NCBI RefSeq assembly: GCF_000012905.2
Contig: NC_007494.2
Location: forward strand, 630,001-662,000
Origin: Cereibacter sphaeroides 2.4.1
GTDB lineage: Bacteria > Pseudomonadota > Alphaproteobacteria > Rhodobacterales > Rhodobacteraceae
DNA: 32,000 nucleotides
Direction of reading: 5' to 3'
Positions 1,034 through 8,765 of this stretch are shown in pieces (positions within the stretch are counted from its first letter, which is position 1; the number at the start of each line of letters is the position of its first letter). A model generated the notes under the pieces. That model saw nothing but the letters and a program-made list of their open reading frames with translations, made no database searches and was not told where the DNA came from. The position numbers were made by a program, and so were the translations under genes.

Positions 1034-3276
1034 TTGCGCATCGATGGCGGAGCTGCCGACGCTTTCGTGGATGGTGGCGCAGGCGGGAGCGATGCTGCCG
1101 TCGGCTTAGGGCGCGAGGTCGATGGCGGCGTACCGAACGTCGAGGTGTTCCGCCGGATCCTGCGCGACCACTTGGTGGAGACCTCGCCACTCGGGCCGGG
1201 CGACGAGCTGATGGGCGAGCCGGTGACGGTGCGCCGCCTGCATTCCGTACGAACCGCGGGGCAGGCGACCGGCATCGACCAGCGGCGCATGCGCCGGATG
1301 CTGGCCGAGGCCGGGATCGTGGCGGACGCGGCCGAGGGCACATGCGATGGCTGGGAGACCTTCGACGCCGCGGCGGCCCAGCCGATCCTCGATGACCTCA
1401 CGGCGCTGACCCATCGGAACATGAGCCCCAACAAGGCCACCCATTCCGAGGGCAGGGCGCTGAGGGAACTGAAGGAGCGTGCCCGGGTCATCGCCAACGA
1501 TGATCCGCTGCTGGGGGCAAAGAGGGGCGGCAGGGTTACCGTCAGCCTCGACTGGCCTCAGGGCAGGACCCTCAGGAAATACGTCGACACCTACCTCAGG
1601 TTCGGCAGGAATTCCGTGGTGCTGCTGGATCGGGACCACATGAAAGGGCCGAGGGAGGCAAAAGATCGCCAGCGAATGAGCTACTGGCAGGAGCGTTTCA
1701 TCTCCTACGTCCTCAACCTCTGGCACGATGAAAAGAAGCCGCCCCTCGCGCCGCTCGCGAGAATGGCCGAGACTCAGTTTCCCATTCCGCCGGAGGAAAT
1801 CGCGCGCGACCGCTGGTATCCCACAATCACCACGCTACAAACCCGAAAGAACGCGATCTCCGAGGTGGCACAGACACTTGGCCGGAAGGGGATCCGTCAG
1901 GGCGCGAACCTGAAGGGCGCGGGATCCACGGACATTCCTGCGCTGATGTTCGGCGAGTATTGCGCAGTCGACCAAGTTTACCTGTCGATCCACACCGATG
2001 GCAAAGGCATCGTGCGCGCGACGGAGATCGATCCCGCGAAGGCGTCGGAAGATCTGGAAGACAACGAGATCTGCCGGCTCTGGTTGCATCTGATGATCGA
2101 CGTCGCGACGCGTCTTCCGCTGGGATGGATCATCGCGGAGTCCGCCGATGCCGATCACAGCCACGCGCTCCTTCGCATGGCAACCCGCGACAAGACGAAG
2201 GAGAAGGTCCGCTATCGTTGCAAGCGGGATCCGGCGCCCCCCGCTGGTCTGCTTCTGACGACGGCGGACAACGGGACGGCAACGCGGAACGGGACCGTCT
2301 ACGCTAGCCAGCTTGGCATCGACTCGATCGTCATGAAGAGCCGAACCCATCACTCCACGGACAATTCCTTCATCGAACGGCCGTTCGGAACCCTGCAGTG
2401 GCAGGTGCTGAATTTCCTCGATGGCTATGCCGGCAGTCGTCCGGGTGAACTGGAGGGTTACGAGCCGGAGGCGAACGCCCGGATCACCCATGACGAACTC
2501 TACGGGATCATCACGCGCTACTTCGTCGACGAATATCCGTTCGCCCCGCACCGCGGCACCGGCATGTATAAAGCGACGCCTTGGCAGAAGTACGACGAAG
2601 TTACGAAGTTCTATGGCGGGATCGATGTGCCCAACCGTCGCGATCGCTGTCTGCACCTCGGCGTGAAGCGCAAGATGCATACCACCTCGGAAGGCGTCAA
2701 TCCCTTCAACATCCCCTTCAACTCCACCGCGTTGCAAGTGTTCGCGGCCGGCAGATCGAAGGAGGTCACGGTTCACATCGATCCGGACTTCATCCGGCAC
2801 GCCTATGTCACGGCGAAGGGTCACCCTGAAATCATCAAGGTCGATCTTCGCATGACGGCGTTCAATGACCTGACGCTGGAGGAAATCCTCGACCTGCAGA
2901 AGGCCACCGCCGAAGCCAATCCGAAGAAGCGCGTGCTGAACAACGGCCACTTTCAGGAGGCGCTTGCCCAGCGTGCCCGGGTGAATCGGGCTTCTTCCCG
3001 GATCCCCAGGCCCCGTCGAGCAATCGGACCATCGCGCAACTGGAGGAAGAGGCCGATCACCTGGCCCAGGTCGAAGCGCGACCTGTACCGACGATGGGTG
3101 TGACAGCGGCGCCCGGAAGCATCATGGACTGGTCCGGGAGAACGCCCTCCCGGCGGGCGGCAACAGCGTCCGCTCCTCCTCCGGCTCTCCCGCCGGCTTC
3201 GATCCTCCAGGCGGCCACGACGGCCGTTCCCACCGACGCCCCTGCATTCGCCCCCATCAAGGGAAGCAAACTGTGA
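1034..3276 (+). pseudogene. tniA: TniA/TnsB/MuA-family DDE transposase (rve-type integrase core), frameshifted near 2975-2983; true start uncertain
   Basis: Candidate D-D-E triad in the 689-aa ORF: CAVDQVYLSIHTD, LLTTADNGTATRN, DNSFIERPFGTLQ. After ...EALAQRAR the tracked frame turns into Arg/Pro-rich junk. Frame 1 (open from 2830) continues plausibly as GESGFFPDPQAPSSNRTIAQLEEEADHLAQVEA... and ends at TGA 3274-3276, overlapping the next gene's GTG. The shift sits in a CCCGGG run. The first ~100 codons may not belong to the gene. Confidence 0.7.
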
Positions 3277-3650
3277 CCAATCCCTTCATCATCCCCGAAA
3301 TCGCCGATCTCGCGGAACAGGTATCGCACCGACATTTCCCGCTCGCCCGCGCGACGGATCTGCAGACGGCCTTCGCCAAGATCTTCAGCCGCACCTCGGA
3401 AGCCTCCGTGGTGGCCGCCCGTTCGAGTCGGAATGCCTCGTCGTCACGGGCCTTTCGGGAAGCGGCAAGACGAAGGAAATTCGCGATCTGCTGCGCCGCT
3501 TCCAGGAAAGCGCGGCGGTCCTCCCGTCGGGCCAGCCGGCACGGATCGTCGAGTGCATTCTCGATGCAAAGGGCGGCTGGAAGGACCTCAACAGGAAGAC
3601 CCTCAAGGCAATGGGGTATCCGATTTCGGACAGTTCACGACTGCGCCCAA
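3273..3650 (+). pseudogene. tniB: TniB/TnsC-like AAA+ ATPase fragment, frameshifted around 3400-3420 and truncated
   Basis: The N-terminus MTNPFIIPEIADLAEQVSHRHFPLARATDLQTAFAKIF is in frame 3. The Walker A segment FESECLVVTGLSGSGKTKEIRDLLRRF (GLSGSGKT at 3449-3472) is in frame 2, which stops at 3719-3721. Only about 120 residues of an expected ~300 are present. Confidence 0.6.
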
Positions 3651-3654
3651 CCTC

Positions 3655-4533
3655 ATGCGCGAGGGTACACGGGGTCAGGTATCGCCGGTGGAACGCGACG
3701 GCATCTTCGGCGGCGATATAAAGCTAGAGGTCTCCGACCCGCACCAGGTCTATGCACTGCTTGCCCGGATGCAGGAGATGCACATCCTCGACCAAGGCGA
3801 GATCGACCGGTTCGTGTCACGCTTCCTGCAAGCCAATCAGCGGGCCGATGAGCGGCCGGTGCTGGAAGGCATCGTCCGGCAGACAGTGGAGCGCTTCCGG
3901 ACGGCCCTGACCGAGGAGCAGCAGGAAGAGTTCCGGCAGCTGCTGGCTTCCTTCCTGCGGTTTTATGCCTTCATCTCGCAGGTCATCGCCCTCGAGGACA
4001 GCGACCTCGAGAAGATGTACCTCTTCGGCAGCTGGCTGAAACGCCTGCTTCCGTCGCGCGAGGCGCCGCAAGGCGGCGATGTCACCGACGACATGCTGGA
4101 GTTGCAGGCCTTCCGGCTCTCGGAAGGCGAGGTTGTCGATGCGTCGCTCGAAGCAACAGAGGCGAAGCCGCTGTCCCCGATCGACCGTTTCGGGGCGAAC
4201 CCTTTTACTGAAGAAGAGCGGCGCACGCTTTCGGAAATCATCAAGGCGTTCAACGACCGGCACGCCACGAACTTCACCGAAGAGGATTACATCCGCTTCG
4301 AGGCAGTGAACGAGGCCATCCTCGACGACGAGGCTTGGGCCGAAATGCTGCGGAACAACCCGCCCGAGGTCGTGCGGCCCAGGTTCGGCGAGGAGTTCAT
4401 GCGTAGGGCCATTCTGGCGTTCCAACGCGACCGCCAGATGCAGAGCGCCTTCCTCCAAGATCGGGAAGGCCGGGAGATGATCATGGGGCTGATGTTCGGG
4501 CGAGCCGTGCGCGGAGCAAGAAAGTCAGCATAG
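3655..4533 (+). pseudogene. hsdR: Orphan C-terminal fragment of a type I restriction enzyme R subunit (HsdR helical C-terminal region)
   Basis: The tail of the 3433-4533 ORF reads ...SDPHQVYALLARMQEMHILDQGEIDRFVSRF...EEQQEEFRQLLASFLRFYAFISQVIALEDSDLEKMYLFGSWLKRLLP...LSEIIKAFNDRHATNFTEEDYIRFE... This matches the conserved C-terminal layout of HsdR proteins as I know them. No helicase or nuclease part and no hsdM/hsdS are in the window. The 5' boundary is approximate, and the junction with tniB lies somewhere in 3620-3700. Confidence 0.7.
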
Positions 4534-4615
4534 AAATTGAGAATTAAGCACTCGTCTGGCAGAAAGGCCTTCCCGAAATTACATCGGGCAATTCAAAAGA
4601 ACCACCGTATTTAAG

Positions 4616-4646
4616 TTGACTGACGAAATACACATGTAGTTAAAAT
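4616..4646 (+). promoter_or_regulatory. Sigma-70-like promoter candidate: TTGACT (4616-4621), 19-nt spacer, TAAAAT (4641-4646)
   Basis: Read directly in the AT-rich spacer after the hsdR fragment. It is followed by GGAGGG (4657-4662), 4 nt before ATG 4667. The spacer is longer than optimal. Confidence 0.3.
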
Positions 4647-4666
4647 GCAGCCAATCGGAGGGCAAT

Positions 4667-4969
4667 ATGGACGGTCAGAGAGTATCACAAGAAGAGTTTG
4701 AGGAACTCCTGAGAAAACGACTGAATTTGTATGAGAAACTCCATCGTCGACAGTTTTGCGGCAAAGGCCTCAACCTCAAGCTCGCCGACAACAATTGGCG
4801 CCGCAGTGACGCCAACAAGGGCAGCCTCTCCTTTGACTTCATGGAGTTTGATGAAATGTCCGCCGAGTTTGCCAGAGACGCCGCAAACCACATCAATAAA
4901 CTCGTGGTATTAACGAGGGATGTTGCGGATTGGACTGCCATGATGAGCGAGACCGCCGATGAAAGTTAA
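4667..4969 (+). CDS. Hypothetical protein, 100 aa; probably the N-terminal part of a 303-codon gene interrupted by TAA 4967-4969
   Basis: Strong SD and a promoter-like element upstream. Charged, helical-looking sequence (EEFEELLRKRLNLYEKLHRR...). Same reading frame as 5024-5578, with only one stop between them. No family recognised. Confidence 0.5.
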   Translation: MDGQRVSQEEFEELLRKRLNLYEKLHRRQFCGKGLNLKLADNNWRRSDANKGSLSFDFMEFDEMSAEFARDAANHINKLVVLTRDVADWTAMMSETADES

Positions 4970-5023
4970 AGAAACGAGATCTACTATGAATTTATTAGGT
5001 TACCAGTCACGCTCGCGCTGTGC

Positions 5024-5578
5024 ATGCCGCAAGCCATGAAAGAGAAGTTCTACTTCTACATTTCGCATCTCGCCAATCAGGTGCGACGAATATCACATGG
5101 ACCAGTGCAGGATAACCTTGTCGAGGATCATCGAATAAATCGCGATGTTGCGAGGAAATTGATTGGCGACTGGCCGAAAGGACAAGACTTTCTGACCCTT
5201 CTGGATCGGATTTCTGATGAAGAAATGTCCAGAAGAACTCAGAACTTCAGAAATGGCTTCAGCCATCAAATTACGCCGGGCATTCACGTTGGGATGACTC
5301 GGTTTGTCACCCGGTCCATTTTCAAGAATCAGGAAGATCTTGACGTCATTTTCGGAGACCAGAGCAGGATGCCGCAAGAACTTCGGCGCCCGCCAATGAA
5401 CCCTGGCGAAAAGCGTATCATCTACGTGTTTGGCGGACAAGAAGCGCTGAAGCTTGATGATGTCGTCGCTGTACTCGTTGAACAAATACAACGAATTCAT
5501 GAATGCTACGACATGTTCAAAGAGTATGTCTGGTTCTACGAAGATCAGTTCTATGGGGATGAGAGGAAGACCATCTGA
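5024..5578 (+). CDS. HEPN-like (Abi-type RNase-like) protein or C-terminal part of an interrupted gene; RNxxxH motif
   Basis: FRNGFSHQ (R-N-G-F-S-H at 5249-5266) fits the HEPN Rx4-6H / RNxxxH signature. The protein looks helical and charged. There is no Shine-Dalgarno before ATG 5024 or ATG 5036. The 18 codons 4970-5023 are open in the same frame (RNEIYYEFIRLPVTLALC). The family call rests on this motif only. Confidence 0.45.
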   Translation: MPQAMKEKFYFYISHLANQVRRISHGPVQDNLVEDHRINRDVARKLIGDWPKGQDFLTLLDRISDEEMSRRTQNFRNGFSHQITPGIHVGMTRFVTRSIFKNQEDLDVIFGDQSRMPQELRRPPMNPGEKRIIYVFGGQEALKLDDVVAVLVEQIQRIHECYDMFKEYVWFYEDQFYGDERKTI

Positions 5579-5582
5579 GGTG

Positions 5583-5604
5583 GGAGCGCCCGCTCGCGCG
5601 CTCC
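5583..5604. terminator. GC-rich hairpin GGAGCGC-N8-GCGCTCC between the convergent HEPN-like and TIR genes; candidate bidirectional terminator
   Basis: A 7-bp perfect stem read directly (5583-5589 / 5598-5604) in the 54-nt spacer between stop 5578 and stop 5633. There is no clear U-tract. Confidence 0.3.
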
Positions 5605-5632
5605 GCCCGTCCTCCATTAGCACTCGCCGCGA

Positions 5633-6349
5633 CTAAATGGCTACCAATTCTGCAATTTTAGCCGCGACCTCCGCCATTGACTCTTCGGCAGTGCTCAGCC
5701 CCGCACGGGACGCCAACAGTAGACTGACCTTCTCAAGCTCTTCATAGGTCGTTCCATGAACGACCGGGACAAGACGCTCACGCCGGAGGAGAGCCGAAAG
5801 CTCTTTGTCTGCGATGCCTTCCGCGGGGAGGCGGCGCAACATGGCCGGGGTTACCAACACAATACCGACTCGAGAGTTTACCAAGCCCTTGTCGATCGCC
5901 CGCATCATTGGCACCCCGAGGCCAAGGTCCTTTTCACTGAACCATACCCGGACACCCCGGGCCTCCAGCAAATCATGCAATTCCTTGGCGGAGCCCTGCC
6001 TGTCATCCCATGCGTGGCATAGAAACACATCTCGAAGATCAGGCTGCGAGGCCGCCAGGTTTTCGACGTTTTCTCGAACCGGCGTGAGCGCCTGAACCTG
6101 TTCAGGCGTGTACCAGACTGACGAACCTGTTCCCGACCAGCGCGGTTTGGCGGTGCGGCGCACTGAACTACCGCTGGTCCGACCGCTGCTGCTCCCTGAG
6201 GAGGATGAAGGGGACGAATATGACCCGTAACTGCTGTAGCCATACCCGCTATAGCCGCTGGAGCGGCTGTAGCGGCTCCCACATGCAGGACATGCGGCTG
6301 CGGCAGCTGCCGAGCGATGACCATTTACTGGTGCAGTACATCTCGCCAT
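5633..6349 (-). CDS. TIR-domain protein (238 aa) with Cys/His knuckle and Ser/Gly/Tyr-rich low-complexity N-terminal region
   Basis: The C-terminal ~130 aa follow the bacterial TIR pattern: DVFLCHAWDDRQGSAKELHDLLEARGVRVWFSEKDLGLGVPMMRAIDKGLVNSRVGIVLVTPAML...GIADKELSALLRRERLVPVVHG. A Glu (E183) sits where the catalytic NADase glutamate is expected. A strong SD, AAGGAGGTG (complement of 6357-6365), lies 7 nt before ATG (6349). G+C is lower than the flanks. Confidence 0.85.
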   Translation of the reverse strand: MARCTAPVNGHRSAAAAAACPACGSRYSRSSGYSGYGYSSYGSYSSPSSSSGSSSGRTSGSSVRRTAKPRWSGTGSSVWYTPEQVQALTPVRENVENLAASQPDLRDVFLCHAWDDRQGSAKELHDLLEARGVRVWFSEKDLGLGVPMMRAIDKGLVNSRVGIVLVTPAMLRRLPAEGIADKELSALLRRERLVPVVHGTTYEELEKVSLLLASRAGLSTAEESMAEVAAKIAELVAI

Positions 6350-6497
6350 GCCTCTTCACCTCCTTCACCAAACACCACTTCGTCAGTCCGCGGATCCATT
6401 GCGCACCACGACTAGCCGTCGCTTTTTGCTCATTTGACGTCGTTTTTCAGCATAATGGACAATTTATCTGAACCGCGAGACTCTTGCCTCCCCGCCC

Positions 6498-8765
6498 TCA
6501 TCCGCACTTGGAGAAGCCGCAGCTGGCGCAGGTCATGCAGCCTTCCACCATGCGGAGGTCGTAGCTGCCGCAGGAGGAGCAGGCCTTGGCCTTCACCCCC
6601 AAGACCTGCACATCGGCATGAGGGTCGGTCTTCAGACCCATGCCCTCGCCCTCGATGAAGCCGATCGCGATCAGGTGGCGCTCGATCACGCCGCCGATGG
6701 CTGCTAGGATCGAGGGAATGTAGCGCCCCTCCATCCAGGCGCCGCCGCGGGGGTCGAAGACCGCCTTCAGCTCCTCGACCACGAAGGAAATGTCGCCGCC
6801 GCGCCGGAAGACGGCCGAGATCATCCGCGTGAGCGCCACCGTCCAGGCGAAATGCTCCATGTTCTTCGAGTTGATGAACACTTCGAACGGCCGGCGGTGG
6901 CCGGAGATGACGATGTCGTTCACCGTGATGTAGAGCGCATGTTCCGAGCCCGGCCATTTCACCTTGTAGGTCGCGCCCTCAAGGGCTGCGGGGCGGTCGA
7001 GCGGATCGGTGAGATAGACCACCTCGCCGCCCTTGGGCTCGGGCGCCTCGGCCGGAGCCGCCTGCCCCGCCTCGGAGACCGAGAGCACCGAGCCCGTCAC
7101 CTCGTTCGGCCGATAGGTCGTGCAGCCCTTGCAGCCCTGATCCCAGGCCGCGAGGTAGACGTCGGCGAATTCCTCGAAACCGATATCTTCCGGGCAGTTG
7201 ATCGTCTTGGAAATCGAACTGTCGATCCATTTCTGCGCCGCCGCCTGCATCCGCACATGTTCGAGCGGCGCCAGCGTCTGGGCATTCACGAAATAGTCCG
7301 GCAGCGGGGCGTCGCCCATCTGTTCGCGCCAGAGGCGGACGGCGTAATCGACGACCTCCTCCTCGGTGCGGCTTCCGTCCTTCTGCAGCACCTTGCGCTT
7401 GTAGGCATAGGCGAAGACCGGCTCGATCCCCGACGAGACGTTGCCGGCGTAGAGGCTGATCGTGCCGGTGGGGGCGATCGAGGTCAGCAGCGCGTTGCGG
7501 ATGCCGTGGGTGCGGATCGCCGCGCGCACATCCTCGTCCATATGGGTGAGCGAGCCCGACCCGAGATACTTGTCGGCCTCGAACAGCGGGAAGGCGCCCT
7601 TCTCGCGCGCGAGATCCGCAGAGGCGAGATAGGCCGAGCGCGCGATGGCCTTCATCCAGGCCTCGGTCCGGGCGGCGGCTTCTTCCGAGCCGTAGCGCAG
7701 CCCCACCATCAGCAGGGCATCCGCAAGGCCCGTCACGCCGAGGCCGATCCGGCGCTTCATCTGCGCCTCGCGCGCCTGTTCGGGCAGCGGGAAGCGCGAG
7801 GCATCCACCACATTGTCCATCATCCGGACGGCAAGGCGCACCAGCTCGTCCAGCTCGGCTAGATCGAGCTCCGCCCCGTCGGAAAACGGTTTCGCGACCA
7901 GCCGGGCGAGGTTCACCGAGCCGAGAAGGCAGGCGCCATAGGGCGGCAGCGGCTGCTCGCCGCAGGGGTTGGTGGCAGAGATCGTCTCGCAGTAGGCGAG
8001 ATTGTTCATCTGGTTGATGCGGTCGATGAAAATCACGCCCGGCTCGGCGAAATCGTAGGTGGAACGCATGATGCGGTTCCAGAGGTCGCGCGCCTGCAGC
8101 GTCCTGTAGACCTTGCCGCCGAAGGTGAGCTCCCACGGGCCGTCCGCCTTCACGGCCTCCATGAAGGCGTCGGTCACGAGAACCGAGAGGTTGAACATCC
8201 GCAGCCGGGCCGGGTCTTTCTTGGCTTCGATGAAACTCTCGATGTCGGGATGGTCGCAGCGCATCGTGGCCATCATGGCGCCGCGCCGCGAGCCTGCCGA
8301 CATGATCGTCCGGCACATCGCATCCCAGACATCCATGAAGGAAAGGGGCCCCGAGGCGTCGGCGGCGACGCCCTTCACCTCGGCGCCGCGCGGGCGGATG
8401 GTCGAGAAGTCATAGCCGATCCCGCCGCCCTGCTGCATCGTCAGCGCCGCTTCCTTCAGCGCGTCGAAGATACCCGCCATGCTGTCCGGGACGGTGCCCA
8501 TGACGAAGCAGTTGAAGAGCGTGACCGTGCGCCCGGTGCCCGCCCCAGCGGTGATCCGGCCGGCCGGCAGGAAGCGGAAATCCTCGAGCGCGCTGTAGAA
8601 CCGATCCTCCCAAAGCGCAGGCTCGGCCTCGACTTCGGCCAGCGCCCGCGCGATCCGCCGCCAGGTATCTTCGACCGATCCGTCGACCGGATGGCCCGCG
8701 CCATCCTTCAGGCGATACTTCATATCCCAGATCTGCTCGGCGATGGGGGCATGGAATCGGGACAT
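6498..8765 (-). CDS. nrdJ: Class II (adenosylcobalamin-dependent) ribonucleotide reductase
   Basis: 755 aa. Typical class II RNR blocks are present (FLPAGRI, LFNCFV, QGGGIGYDFS.IRP, ATNPCGEQPLPPYGACLLGS) plus a C-terminal Cys-rich tail, CSSCGSYDLRMVEGCMTCASCGFSKCG. Confidence 0.95.
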   Translation of the reverse strand: MSRFHAPIAEQIWDMKYRLKDGAGHPVDGSVEDTWRRIARALAEVEAEPALWEDRFYSALEDFRFLPAGRITAGAGTGRTVTLFNCFVMGTVPDSMAGIFDALKEAALTMQQGGGIGYDFSTIRPRGAEVKGVAADASGPLSFMDVWDAMCRTIMSAGSRRGAMMATMRCDHPDIESFIEAKKDPARLRMFNLSVLVTDAFMEAVKADGPWELTFGGKVYRTLQARDLWNRIMRSTYDFAEPGVIFIDRINQMNNLAYCETISATNPCGEQPLPPYGACLLGSVNLARLVAKPFSDGAELDLAELDELVRLAVRMMDNVVDASRFPLPEQAREAQMKRRIGLGVTGLADALLMVGLRYGSEEAAARTEAWMKAIARSAYLASADLAREKGAFPLFEADKYLGSGSLTHMDEDVRAAIRTHGIRNALLTSIAPTGTISLYAGNVSSGIEPVFAYAYKRKVLQKDGSRTEEEVVDYAVRLWREQMGDAPLPDYFVNAQTLAPLEHVRMQAAAQKWIDSSISKTINCPEDIGFEEFADVYLAAWDQGCKGCTTYRPNEVTGSVLSVSEAGQAAPAEAPEPKGGEVVYLTDPLDRPAALEGATYKVKWPGSEHALYITVNDIVISGHRRPFEVFINSKNMEHFAWTVALTRMISAVFRRGGDISFVVEELKAVFDPRGGAWMEGRYIPSILAAIGGVIERHLIAIGFIEGEGMGLKTDPHADVQVLGVKAKACSSCGSYDLRMVEGCMTCASCGFSKCG

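What the first reader, a model, noticed from the sequence alone, without database searches (positions are those of the whole stretch)
4534..6497. Lower-GC islet with a HEPN-motif gene converging on a TIR-domain gene: candidate undescribed defence module
The ~2 kb between the hsdR fragment and nrdJ differs clearly in composition from its surroundings. Hand counts of 60-nt lines gave 42% G+C at 4561, 50% at 5161 and 53% at 5701, while flanking genes look near two-thirds G+C.

The islet holds a promoter-like element and a strong SD, followed by a 303-codon frame (4667-5578). That frame carries FRNGFSHQ, an exact RNxxxH HEPN-type RNase signature of the kind seen in Abi-type and Cas13/Csm6-type HEPN domains.

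Converging on it, across a GC-rich hairpin, is a 238-aa protein with a clear bacterial TIR domain. The TIR domain has a Glu (E183) at the expected catalytic NADase position.

The neighbours are a restriction-enzyme remnant and a transposon remnant, which is typical defence-island context. No SIR2, SLOG, Macro or other known Thoeris ThsA-type partner is present, so this is not canonical Thoeris. I do not know of a described TIR plus small HEPN two-gene system.

The two genes could also be independent single-gene Abi-type defences, and the HEPN-like gene may be inactivated (see the separate finding).
Basis: partly seen in the sequence, partly recalled or inferred. Interest (0 to 1): 0.75.

Follow-up and report, generated by a model that had tools for sequence, protein, structure and literature searches.

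The report
Solo TIR gene beside unrelated pseudogene
The low-GC patch is a decayed piece of a horizontally acquired defence island, holding a widespread stand-alone TIR immune gene next to an unrelated, recently inactivated gene of an uncharacterised family, and the two do not form a new two-gene system.

Summary
The sequence-level observation holds. This stretch has the lowest G+C in the window. A 303-codon frame (4667-5578) is broken by TAA at 4967-4969 and carries RNxxxH. It converges on a 238-aa TIR gene (5633-6349, minus strand) with an invariant Glu183.

The "TIR + HEPN module" reading does not hold. The TIR protein matches PADLOC's ThsB model PDLC00424 end to end. Its family keeps 60-90% identity across phyla, on chromosomes, plasmids and predicted viral contigs, with variable neighbours. 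Of 86 fetched TIR loci, only the Cereibacter ovatus orthologous island carries the 303-aa gene. Ten independent loci of the 303-aa family hold no TIR.

The 303-aa family is rare (164 hits among 1.8 billion representatives). R and H of the motif are invariant. A very confident AlphaFold model finds no PDB match, and the HEPN Pfam hits are sub-threshold, so HEPN membership is unproven. C. ovatus has GAA where this window has TAA, and dN/dS is 0.17, so the inactivation is recent.

Best reading: these are two independently acquired single genes beside a transposon-truncated type I restriction gene. Interest is modest. The leftovers worth following are the TIR's zinc-knuckle and Ser/Gly/Tyr-rich N-terminus, and the unmatched fold of the 303-aa family.

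The parts
3726..4533 (+). 3' remnant (last ~269 codons) of a type I restriction hsdR gene, truncated upstream by unrelated DNA that carries a TnsB-like transposase ORF (1034-3103)
   Evidence: Homology with C. ovatus L001 begins at window 3726 and runs into its intact 997-aa HsdR gene (Pfam HSDR_N, ResIII, T1R_D3-like). RefSeq calls the remnant a 281-aa hypothetical protein.
4534..4666 (+). AT-rich intergenic region (41% GC) with a GGAGGG Shine-Dalgarno sequence and a by-eye promoter-like TTGACT-19 nt-TAAAAT
   Evidence: The consensus scan did not call a promoter here. The region is about 90% conserved in C. ovatus.
4667..5578 (+). 303-codon gene of an uncharacterised family, here a pseudogene (annotated as two ORFs, 4667-4969 and 5024-5578)
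   Evidence: Single frame with one stop. The intact 303-aa orthologue in C. ovatus is 88% identical. The family has 164 members at E<1e-3. dN/dS against C. ovatus is 0.17.
4967..4969 (+). In-frame TAA nonsense codon (codon 101) that splits the gene
   Evidence: The C. ovatus orthologue has GAA (Glu) at the aligned position.
5249..5266 (+). R-N-G-F-S-H (R195...H200), the family's invariant Rx4H motif
   Evidence: R and H are invariant in 30- and 70-sequence family alignments. In the AF2 model of homologue P0122 the motif lies in a short helix (190-196) inside an alpha/beta insert.
5579..5632 (.). 76%-GC convergent intergenic spacer with a 7-bp GC stem
   Evidence: The folding energy is not better than shuffles (z 0.58). 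This is the least conserved part against C. ovatus, at 68-75%.
5633..6349 (-). Stand-alone TIR gene (238 aa): CHCC zinc-knuckle-like N-terminus, Ser/Gly/Tyr/Arg-rich linker, KPRWS motif, TIR domain
   Evidence: Pfam TIR_2 at 1.2e-15. PADLOC ThsB PDLC00424 at 3.3e-121 over 1-238 of the protein and 1-234 of the 234-position model. Closest solved sequences are PdTIR 3h16, TcpB 4lqc and AbTIR 8g83. dN/dS is 0.04.
6281..6340 (-). Codons 4-23: C4-x6-H11-x8-C20-x2-C23, a putative zinc knuckle
   Evidence: C4, H11, C20 and C23 are conserved in 73-77 of 77 family members. Zinc binding is inferred from the spacing, not tested.
6149..6280 (-). Codons 24-67: low-complexity linker
   Evidence: Across 69 family members the linker averages 43 aa and is S 36%, G 23%, Y 13%, R 11%. 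The sequence varies but the composition is conserved.
5801..5803 (-). Codon for Glu183 in the invariant DKELSALL motif, the presumed catalytic Glu of the TIR NADase
   Evidence: 77 of 77 members have E. The motif resembles the KEL/REL of PdTIR and TcpB, although HMMER's own alignment there is offset by a few residues.
6350..6497 (-). Upstream region of the TIR gene with an AAGGAGGTG Shine-Dalgarno sequence; the island ends at the nrdJ stop codon
   Evidence: Alignment with C. ovatus stays at 90-97% up to about 6490.

Best explanation
The islet is the decayed end of a horizontally acquired defence island that Cereibacter sphaeroides shares with C. ovatus, inserted beside nrdJ. It holds three independent pieces.

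(1) A type I restriction-modification operon. Only the last ~269 codons of hsdR survive, after a TnsB-like transposon replaced the rest.

(2) A rare 303-codon gene with its own ribosome-binding site. It encodes a helical-bundle protein with an invariant R-N-x3-H motif. It was under purifying selection until a recent GAA-to-TAA change at codon 101 killed it in this lineage.

(3) On the opposite strand, a self-contained TIR gene.

The TIR protein belongs to a very widespread, strongly conserved family that travels as a one-gene cassette. Examples are IS-flanked copies on Klebsiella plasmids, cargo on predicted viral contigs, and insertions into varied defence islands.

Mechanism (inferred, not shown): the TIR protein is a stand-alone sensor-effector. 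The N-terminal CHCC knuckle and the Ser/Gly/Tyr/Arg-rich linker would drive infection-triggered clustering, perhaps on nucleic acid. The clustered TIR domains would then cleave NAD+ through Glu183, either depleting NAD+ or releasing a cADPR-type product.

The 303-aa protein, where intact, is most likely a stand-alone toxin or Abi-type enzyme that uses an Arg/His dyad, possibly with RNase chemistry like HEPN. Its fold is not demonstrably HEPN.

Shown: gene structures, homologies, conservation, distribution, lack of co-occurrence, pseudogenisation. Inferred: NADase activity, the roles of the N-terminal parts, and any nuclease activity.
For: Shared island and truncation:
- C. ovatus has nrdJ, TIR, an intact 303-aa gene, an intact 997-aa hsdR, a 79-aa ORF, hsdS and hsdM. 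Homology with the window starts at 3726.

Nonsense mutation:
- TAA here against GAA in C. ovatus. dN/dS is 0.17 for the 303 gene and 0.04 for TIR.

TIR identity:
- PADLOC ThsB PDLC00424 at 3.3e-121 over the full length, TIR_2 at 1.2e-15, and PdTIR/TcpB/AbTIR as the nearest solved sequences.
- C4/H11/C20/C23 are conserved in 73-77 of 77 members and E183 is invariant.

Solo status of the TIR gene:
- More than 8000 relatives and at least 423 genome hits spanning Alphaproteobacteria, Gammaproteobacteria, Bacteroidota, Bacillota, Verrucomicrobiota and Planctomycetota.
- DNA homology stops within about 25 nt of the ORF ends.
- No neighbour family is shared by more than 11 of 86 loci. Among the 138 scanned neighbours, the commonest families are CapP/CapH, other ThsB-like TIRs and RmrA, each in about 5-6; IetA/IetS lies upstream in about 8 loci.
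- A SIR2 protein is nearby in only 2 loci.
- The gene sits alone between two ISNCY transposases on K. quasipneumoniae pA708-2 and is solo on a Bacillus plasmid.
- It is found on 210 plasmid records and 27 IMG/VR viral contigs.

No linkage between the two genes:
- tblastn of the 303-aa protein hits only L001 among 86 TIR loci.
- There is no TIR in the 303-family loci.
- Composition differs: 48% against 59% GC.

303-aa family:
- 164 hits at E<1e-3, with invariant R and H.
- AF2 gives pLDDT 96 and pTM 0.89.
- No PADLOC, NCBIfam or Pfam family is matched.
Against: - Nothing here demonstrates enzymatic activity or a defence phenotype for either gene.
- The TIR family is filed by PADLOC among ThsB models, so some members may work with an effector encoded nearby or in trans.
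- The neighbour survey took only the nearest ORF of 120 aa or more on each side. The batch scans list only the 25 most frequent families, so a rare or small partner could be missed.
- Only about 10 independent contexts of the 303-aa family could be examined.
- The pair has stayed adjacent in two Cereibacter species. That is expected from common descent, but it does not exclude a lineage-specific functional link.
Confidence: 0.72

Rival explanations
1. TIR and the 303-aa protein form a lineage-specific Thoeris-like signalling pair. The TIR senses infection and makes an ADPR-derived signal that activates the 303-aa HEPN-like effector.
For: - The genes are adjacent (54-bp spacer) and retained together in C. 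sphaeroides and C. ovatus.
- The TIR matches a ThsB model.
- Thoeris TIRs are known to swap among many effector types; 29 putative types are reported in bioRxiv 10.64898/2025.12.03.692087.
- R and H of the motif are invariant in the 303-aa family.
Against: - The orientation is convergent, with separate ribosome-binding sites.
- Composition differs between the genes.
- None of 85 other TIR loci has the 303-aa gene, and none of about 10 303-family contexts has a TIR.
- No recognisable ligand-sensing domain (SLOG, Macro, SAVED, CARF) was detected in the 303-aa family.
- The effector candidate is a pseudogene here while the TIR stays under strong purifying selection, with dN/dS 0.04. The TIR therefore does not depend on it.
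- The cited preprint lists no HEPN effector in its text or held supplements.
Confidence: 0.05
2. The 303-aa gene belongs functionally with the type I restriction-modification operon just upstream on the same strand. This would resemble the PrrC/RloC anticodon nucleases that are embedded in, and held in check by, type I R-M loci. The TIR would be a bystander.
For: - In C. ovatus the order is hsdM, hsdS, a 79-aa ORF, hsdR and the 303-aa gene, all on one strand, with the 303-aa gene 135 nt downstream of hsdR.
- In another lineage (L090-L093) a family member sits directly after an HNH nuclease gene, with stop and start abutting.
- Loss of hsdMSR here coincides with loss of the 303-aa reading frame.
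Against: - Only one type I R-M association was seen.
- Other family members sit beside unrelated unknown genes, with no shared neighbour.
- The gene has its own AT-rich upstream region and Shine-Dalgarno sequence, and a GC content different from hsdR (48% against 62%).
- It has no homology to PrrC or RloC and no ATPase domain.
Confidence: 0.12
3. The TIR protein is a true ThsB-type signal generator whose effector is encoded elsewhere in the genome (in trans), rather than a self-sufficient NAD+-depleting effector.
For: - Full-length match to a PADLOC ThsB model.
- Other ThsB-like TIR genes are neighbours in about 5 loci, as in multi-ThsB Thoeris islands.
- The nearest solved relatives (AbTIR family) are known from the literature to make cADPR isomers (my own knowledge of Manik et al. 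2022, not checked here).
Against: - No ThsA-type or other effector lies in the 32-kb window.
- No effector is recurrent next to the family.
- One-gene mobility, between IS copies on plasmids and on predicted viral contigs, argues that the gene is useful by itself.
Confidence: 0.15
4. The 184-aa C-terminal ORF (5024-5578), or the 100-aa and 184-aa products together, is still functional, so the gene is split rather than dead.
For: - RefSeq annotates both pieces as proteins.
- The 184-aa product recurs in 7 sequences on 17 contigs.
- The C-terminal part carries the R/H motif and is the most conserved part against C. ovatus.
Against: - In the AF2 model of the full-length homologue, the first two of the four long core helices (7-30, 52-91) come from the part upstream of the stop.
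- No Shine-Dalgarno sequence precedes ATG 5024.
- No family member of the 164 is naturally this short, except for fragments.
Confidence: 0.08

Closest known systems
Thoeris ThsB TIR proteins (PADLOC model PDLC00424, 'ThsB1|ThsB')
   Same: End-to-end HMM match covering 1-238 of the protein and 1-234 of the 234-position model, at E 3.3e-121. It has a TIR domain with a conserved Glu and sits in defence-island neighbourhoods, including next to other ThsB-like genes in some genomes.
   Different: No ThsA (SIR2-SLOG), Macro-TM or other recurrent effector lies beside it, neither here nor in 80+ other loci. It moves as a single gene. The recent systematic Thoeris survey explicitly set aside stand-alone TIR proteins.
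Tcp-type bacterial TIR NADases (PdTIR 3H16, Brucella TcpB/BtpA 4LQC, Acinetobacter AbTIR 8G83/7UWG)
   Same: These are the nearest solved sequences to the TIR domain, at E 8e-16 to 5e-12 over about 130 residues. They are single-gene TIR proteins with a non-TIR N-terminal part, and they share the same (D/R/K)-K/R-E-L Glu motif region.
   Different: Those proteins have N-terminal regions that I recall as coiled-coil (my own knowledge, not checked here). This family has an invariant C-x6-H-x8-C-x2-C knuckle, a ~43-aa Ser/Gly/Tyr/Arg-rich linker and a KPRWS motif.
HEPN superfamily Abi-type RNases (nearest Pfam models HEPN_Cthe2314 PF18730 and HEPN_Apea PF18739)
   Same: R-N-x3-H with invariant R and H. 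The protein is mostly helical and occurs on mobile elements and in defence islands. HEPN_Cthe2314 is the only Pfam family hit by more than one member: 3 of 71, best E 0.012.
   Different: - No hit reaches significance.
- A family profile finds no PDB sequence.
- Foldseek with a pLDDT-96 model finds no HEPN structure or any other: best E 0.76, TM <= 0.25.
- The motif lies in a 7-residue helix within an alpha/beta insert, not at the start of a long core helix. The canonical HEPN position is from my own knowledge, not checked here.
PrrC/RloC-type nucleases embedded in type I R-M loci
   Same: In C. ovatus the gene sits immediately downstream of hsdR in a type I R-M operon, and it has an Arg/His motif.
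   Different: There is no sequence similarity and no NTPase domain. The association was seen only once.

Membership tests
Thoeris (any type) | A TIR-domain (ThsB) protein | tested here: met
   PADLOC PDLC00424 at 3.3e-121 over the full length. Pfam TIR_2 at 1.2e-15.
Thoeris (any type) | A cognate effector gene (ThsA SIR2-SLOG, Macro-TM, caspase-like, etc.) adjacent and recurrently associated with the TIR gene | tested here: not met
   No such gene lies in the 32-kb window. No partner recurs in 86 loci, and SIR2 is nearby in only 2. The adjacent 303-aa gene is convergent and found only in the Cereibacter island.
Thoeris (any type) | Infection-triggered production of an ADPR-derived signal that activates the effector | not testable with these tools
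   Needs phage infection followed by LC-MS of lysates.
TIR NADase | TIR fold with a conserved catalytic glutamate | tested here: met
   TIR_2 match over residues 108-201. E183 is invariant in 77 of 77 members within DKELSALL. It aligns near the KEL/REL motif of PdTIR and TcpB. The exact structural equivalence was not modelled.
TIR NADase | NAD+ cleavage activity | not testable with these tools
   Needs a biochemical assay.
HEPN superfamily | Conserved Rx4-6H motif | tested here: met
   R195 and H200 are invariant across 70 family members. The consensus is T-x-x-F-R-N-x3-H-R.
HEPN superfamily | HEPN helical-bundle fold recognisable by profile or structure comparison | tested here: not met
   - No Pfam hit is significant. 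The best are HEPN_Cthe2314 at 0.012 in 3 of 71 members and HEPN_Apea at 0.029 in 1 of 71.
- The profile search against PDB sequences found none.
- Foldseek against PDB and BFVD found none at E<0.7, using models of pLDDT 91 and 96.
- hhalign against one HEPN_Swt1 sequence gave probability 0.2%.
- A remote relationship is not excluded, because no HEPN profile library for HH-type search was available.
HEPN superfamily | Metal-independent RNase activity | not testable with these tools
   Needs a biochemical assay with R195 and H200 mutants.
Two-gene defence module (generic) | Co-occurrence of the two gene families as neighbours in independent genomes | tested here: not met
   1 of 86 TIR loci has the 303-aa gene, and that one is the orthologous island. 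None of about 10 independent 303-family loci has a TIR.
Two-gene defence module (generic) | Co-directional operon organisation | tested here: not met
   The genes converge, on + and - strands, and each has its own Shine-Dalgarno sequence.
Type I R-M HsdR (remnant) | Collinear homology with an intact HsdR gene | tested here: met
   Window 3726-4533 aligns with the 3' end of the 997-aa C. ovatus HsdR (HSDR_N, ResIII, T1R_D3-like). The remnant alone gives no Pfam or PADLOC hit.

The most novel reading that the evidence does not exclude
Two separate novelties remain possible.

(a) The 303-aa family may be a new toxin or nuclease fold. It would place a HEPN-like Arg/His dyad on a scaffold with no solved relative and act as a stand-alone defence or addiction gene on mobile elements.

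(b) The solo TIR family may be activated by condensation or assembly of its zinc knuckle plus FUS-like Ser/Gly/Tyr/Arg-rich linker, perhaps on phage nucleic acid. That would be a bacterial counterpart of condensation-activated plant TIR-only proteins.

A lineage-specific TIR-to-303-aa signalling link in Cereibacter is not strictly excluded, but it is the least likely of these.
Probability: 0.2. Interest if true: 0.6.

Novelty: new member of a known kind. Interest (0 to 1): 0.3.

Why it matters
The proposed new TIR + HEPN system would have been a notable addition to TIR-based immunity. The evidence says it is a chance juxtaposition, which removes a false lead.

Two things remain useful.

First, this is a clean example of a TIR gene that spreads and persists as a one-gene unit. 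The family keeps 60-90% protein identity across phyla and occurs on chromosomes, on plasmids (123 of 210 plasmid records are Klebsiella) and on predicted viral contigs. Systematic Thoeris surveys deliberately exclude such stand-alone TIRs, so how they sense infection is open. The invariant CHCC knuckle and the Ser/Gly/Tyr/Arg-rich linker give a concrete hypothesis to test.

Second, there is a rare protein family with a very confident predicted structure, no structural or profile match, and an invariant Arg/His motif. An intact copy is available in C. ovatus for experiments.

Tried and rejected
- The word-indexed protein search with the read-through 303-aa sequence, and later with a family profile, returned only the protein itself and one relative. 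It even missed the 88%-identical C. ovatus orthologue. The exhaustive representative search was needed to find the family.
- The search for related loci with the broad family alignment failed for lack of a conserved stretch. With the close subfamily it gave one short metagenome locus and no viral locus.
- Foldseek with the fragment model and the full-length model, against PDB and BFVD, gave only noise. The weak cluster of ClyA-type pore-forming toxins (NheA, Hbl-B, MakA; E 0.8-8, TM about 0.2) was rejected as generic long-helix similarity.
- hhalign of the family against a single HEPN_Swt1 protein showed no relationship.
- No tRNA or Rfam element marks the island borders.
- The hairpin between the genes was tested as a terminator and is no better than shuffles.
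- A SIR2 protein near the Ochrobactrum TIR copy was considered as a hidden ThsA. It recurs in only one other locus, and weakly.


Full report
**What is there**

The window is from the Cereibacter (Rhodobacter) sphaeroides 2.4.1 lineage. A RefSeq record of a 2.4.1-derived strain carries the same TIR protein at 100% identity, with the same neighbours.

The lowest 1-kb G+C of the whole 32 kb is 0.479 at 4501-5500, against a mean of 0.679 and sd of 0.052.

The dip is not uniform:
- the intergenic region 4534-4666 is 41% GC;
- the 303-codon frame is 48% (GC3 57%);
- the TIR gene is 59% (GC3 62%);
- the hsdR remnant is 62% (GC3 81%);
- core genes such as nrdJ and hisG are 66-70% (GC3 88-89%).

These are three different compositions, which already suggests pieces of different origin.

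**Gene structures**

Frame 4667-5578 is a single frame of 303 sense positions, interrupted once by TAA at 4967-4969. It starts 7 nt after a GGAGGG and carries FRNGFSHQ (R195 at 5249-5251, H200 at 5264-5266).

The 238-aa TIR protein is encoded at 5633-6349 on the minus strand, behind an AAGGAGGTG. The two genes converge on a 54-bp, 76%-GC spacer.

The stem-loop in that spacer (-20 kcal/mol) is no more stable than shuffled sequence: z = 0.58, and 140 of 200 shuffles fold as well. A TTGACT-19 nt-TAAAAT can be seen by eye upstream of 4667.

**The orthologous island**

Cereibacter ovatus carries the same island next to nrdJ. The order is nrdJ, TIR (97% identical), an intact 303-aa gene, an intact 997-aa hsdR, a 79-aa ORF, hsdS and hsdM.

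The alignment shows GAA (Glu) in C. ovatus where this window has TAA. Homology between the two genomes begins at window 3726. Only the last ~269 codons of hsdR therefore remain here. Upstream lies unrelated DNA with a 689-aa ORF that gives weak transposase and TnsB hits.

dN/dS against C. ovatus is 0.17 for the 303-codon gene and 0.04 for the TIR gene. Both are real genes. The nonsense mutation is recent, and the TIR gene remains under strong constraint although its neighbour is dead.

**The TIR gene is a known, stand-alone, highly mobile family**

The protein matches Pfam TIR_2 at 1.2e-15. It matches PADLOC's ThsB model PDLC00424 from end to end at 3.3e-121. The nearest solved sequences are PdTIR, TcpB/BtpA and AbTIR.

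The family is very large:
- more than 8000 relatives in the protein search, the best 120 of them 80-98% identical;
- at least 423 genome hits at 60-90% identity, in Alpha- and Gammaproteobacteria, Bacteroidota, Bacillota, Verrucomicrobiota, Planctomycetota and others;
- 210 plasmid records, 123 of them Klebsiella;
- 27 IMG/VR viral contigs.

DNA-level similarity between loci stops within about 25 nt of the ORF ends.

Neighbours vary:
- The commonest neighbour cluster is shared by only 11 of 86 loci.
- IetA/IetS sits upstream in about 8 loci. Batch scans of 138 flanking proteins show CapP/CapH regulators, other ThsB-like TIRs and RmrA in about 5-6 members each, with nothing general.
- A SIR2 protein is nearby in 2 loci only.
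- On K. quasipneumoniae pA708-2 the gene sits alone between two ISNCY transposase genes. On a Bacillus plasmid it is also solo.
- No SIR2, SLOG or Macro protein is encoded anywhere in this window.

Within the family the following are conserved:
- C4, H11, C20 and C23 are conserved in 73-77 of 77 members, with spacing C-x6-H-x8-C-x2-C;
- a linker averaging 43 aa follows, variable in sequence but constant in composition (S 36%, G 23%, Y 13%, R 11%);
- then come KPRWS, DVFLCHAWDDR and DKELSALL, with E183 invariant in 77 of 77.

**The 303-aa gene belongs to a rare, uncharacterised family**

No Pfam, PADLOC, NCBIfam or PHROG model matches it at a meaningful level.

An exhaustive search of 1.8 billion representatives with the 202-aa part after the stop found 164 proteins at E<1e-3 and 36 at E<1e-10. 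Nearly all are 250-320 aa, unnamed, and from metagenomes. A few come from isolates such as Shewanella loihica.

In alignments of 30 and 70 members, R and H of T-x-x-F-R-N-x3-H-R are invariant. P121 and G209 are also invariant, and an HLxHQAN motif is conserved.

AlphaFold2 models are very confident. The fragment gives pLDDT 91 and pTM 0.80, and the full-length homologue P0122 gives pLDDT 96 and pTM 0.89. The full-length model has four long helices (7-30, 52-91, 95-140, 259-292) and an alpha/beta insert (141-258). The R/H motif lies in a short helix of that insert (190-196).

Searches for a known relative found nothing:
- Foldseek finds nothing in PDB or BFVD, with best E 0.76 and TM <= 0.25.
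- A family profile finds no PDB sequence.
- The only Pfam family touched by more than one of 71 members is HEPN_Cthe2314 (3 members, best E 0.012), plus HEPN_Apea in one. All are below threshold.

The Rx4H feature of HEPN is therefore met, but the fold criterion is not. 'HEPN-like chemistry on an unmatched scaffold' is as far as the evidence goes.

**The two genes are not a module**

- tblastn of the intact 303-aa protein against all 86 TIR loci hits only the C. ovatus island.
- Ten independent loci of the 303-aa family have no TIR. These are L087, L090, L094, L095, L096, L098, L101, L105, L106 and short contigs.
- Those loci share no neighbour with each other.
- One lineage has an HNH nuclease gene abutting the family gene.

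Taken with the convergent orientation, the different composition, and the fact that the TIR gene stays constrained after the 303-aa gene died, the adjacency is best explained as two cargo genes that landed in the same defence island.

A recent systematic survey of TIR systems lists 29 putative Thoeris types and explicitly removes stand-alone TIRs. It mentions no HEPN effector in its text or held supplements (bioRxiv 10.64898/2025.12.03.692087).

**Most likely mechanism**

Shown:
- the TIR fold and a conserved Glu at the catalytic position;
- the conserved CHCC spacing and the conserved linker composition;
- one-gene mobility.

Inferred from established TIR biology (bacterial TIR domains are NAD+ glycohydrolases or cyclases that become active when they assemble):
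- the protein is a self-contained sensor-effector;
- its N-terminal knuckle and Ser/Gly/Tyr/Arg-rich linker promote infection-triggered assembly;
- NAD+ is then cleaved via E183.

Whether the outcome is NAD+ depletion or a signal for an effector encoded elsewhere cannot be decided here. I give the in-trans option about 0.15.

For the 303-aa family, I infer a stand-alone toxin or Abi-type enzyme using the Arg/His dyad. A functional tie to the upstream type I R-M operon, in the manner of PrrC, is a minor alternative (about 0.12). It rests on one arrangement plus the HNH pairing.

**Verdict**

The TIR gene is a new member of a known and already annotated family. The 303-aa gene is a pseudogene copy of an uncharacterised family. 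Interest is modest at 0.3. It comes from the unexplored architecture of the solo TIR family and from the confident but unmatched fold of the 303-aa family.

Noticed in passing
window 5633-6349 (-); loci L002-L086, L102, L103, L107-L133: The solo TIR family combines an invariant C-x6-H-x8-C-x2-C N-terminus with a ~43-aa Ser/Gly/Tyr/Arg-rich linker whose composition resembles the low-complexity region of FUS (my comparison, from memory). It keeps 60-90% protein identity across at least six phyla, while DNA homology ends within ~25 nt of the ORF.
   Followed up: partly
L102 (K. quasipneumoniae pA708-2) 3306-7124: The TIR gene sits alone between two ISNCY-family transposase genes, which looks like a one-gene composite transposon. 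123 of 210 plasmid hits are Klebsiella.
   Followed up: partly
window 5141-5440 against L001: The 303-codon gene is mosaic relative to C. ovatus. A ~300-nt block is 100% identical (dS 0.04 over codons 150-260), flanked by 79-89% identity (dS 0.58 in codons 1-100). This suggests recent recombination between the lineages.
   Followed up: partly
L002, L003, L012, L013, L018 and others, about 3-0.3 kb upstream of the TIR gene: A recurrent arrangement appears in about 8 loci: an AAA ATPase, an S8 peptidase (PADLOC IetS, 1.4e-293), a ~72-aa ORF and then the TIR gene.
   Followed up: partly
neighbours of the TIR gene in about 6 of 138 scanned flanking proteins: CapP (Peptidase_M78) and CapH (HTH) regulator pairs lie next to the TIR gene. 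Such pairs are known from the literature (my own knowledge, not checked here) to control CBASS and other defence genes.
   Followed up: no
L090-L093, 6410-7858 in L090: A 196-aa HNH nuclease gene ends exactly where a 285-aa member of the 303-aa family begins. They form a two-gene islet between housekeeping genes of a marine metagenome bacterium. The HNH protein weakly matches PADLOC PtuB and PDC-M01B models.
   Followed up: partly
L098 8001-9574 (Shewanella loihica PV-4); L096 5524-6945: Distant members of the 303-aa family are each followed closely by a different unknown gene (252 aa, 202 aa) with no detectable similarity to each other.
   Followed up: partly
window 1034-3103 and 3726: A 689-aa ORF gives weak TnsB, IS3 and rve hits. 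It lies just upstream of the point (3726) where homology with the intact C. ovatus hsdR begins, so a transposon insertion probably destroyed the type I R-M operon.
   Followed up: partly
window ORFs outside the islet (not attributed to a specific ORF): The batch PADLOC scan of 19 window ORFs gave hits to mad3 (2.4e-39), mad8 (3.5e-14), HEC-02A/B and AriA. These probably come from housekeeping ABC-type ATPases or DnaE rather than defence genes. The tool does not say which ORF matched.
   Followed up: no
window 1-32000: No tRNA gene and no Rfam family at gathering threshold was found anywhere in the window, so neither marks the island borders.
   Followed up: yes
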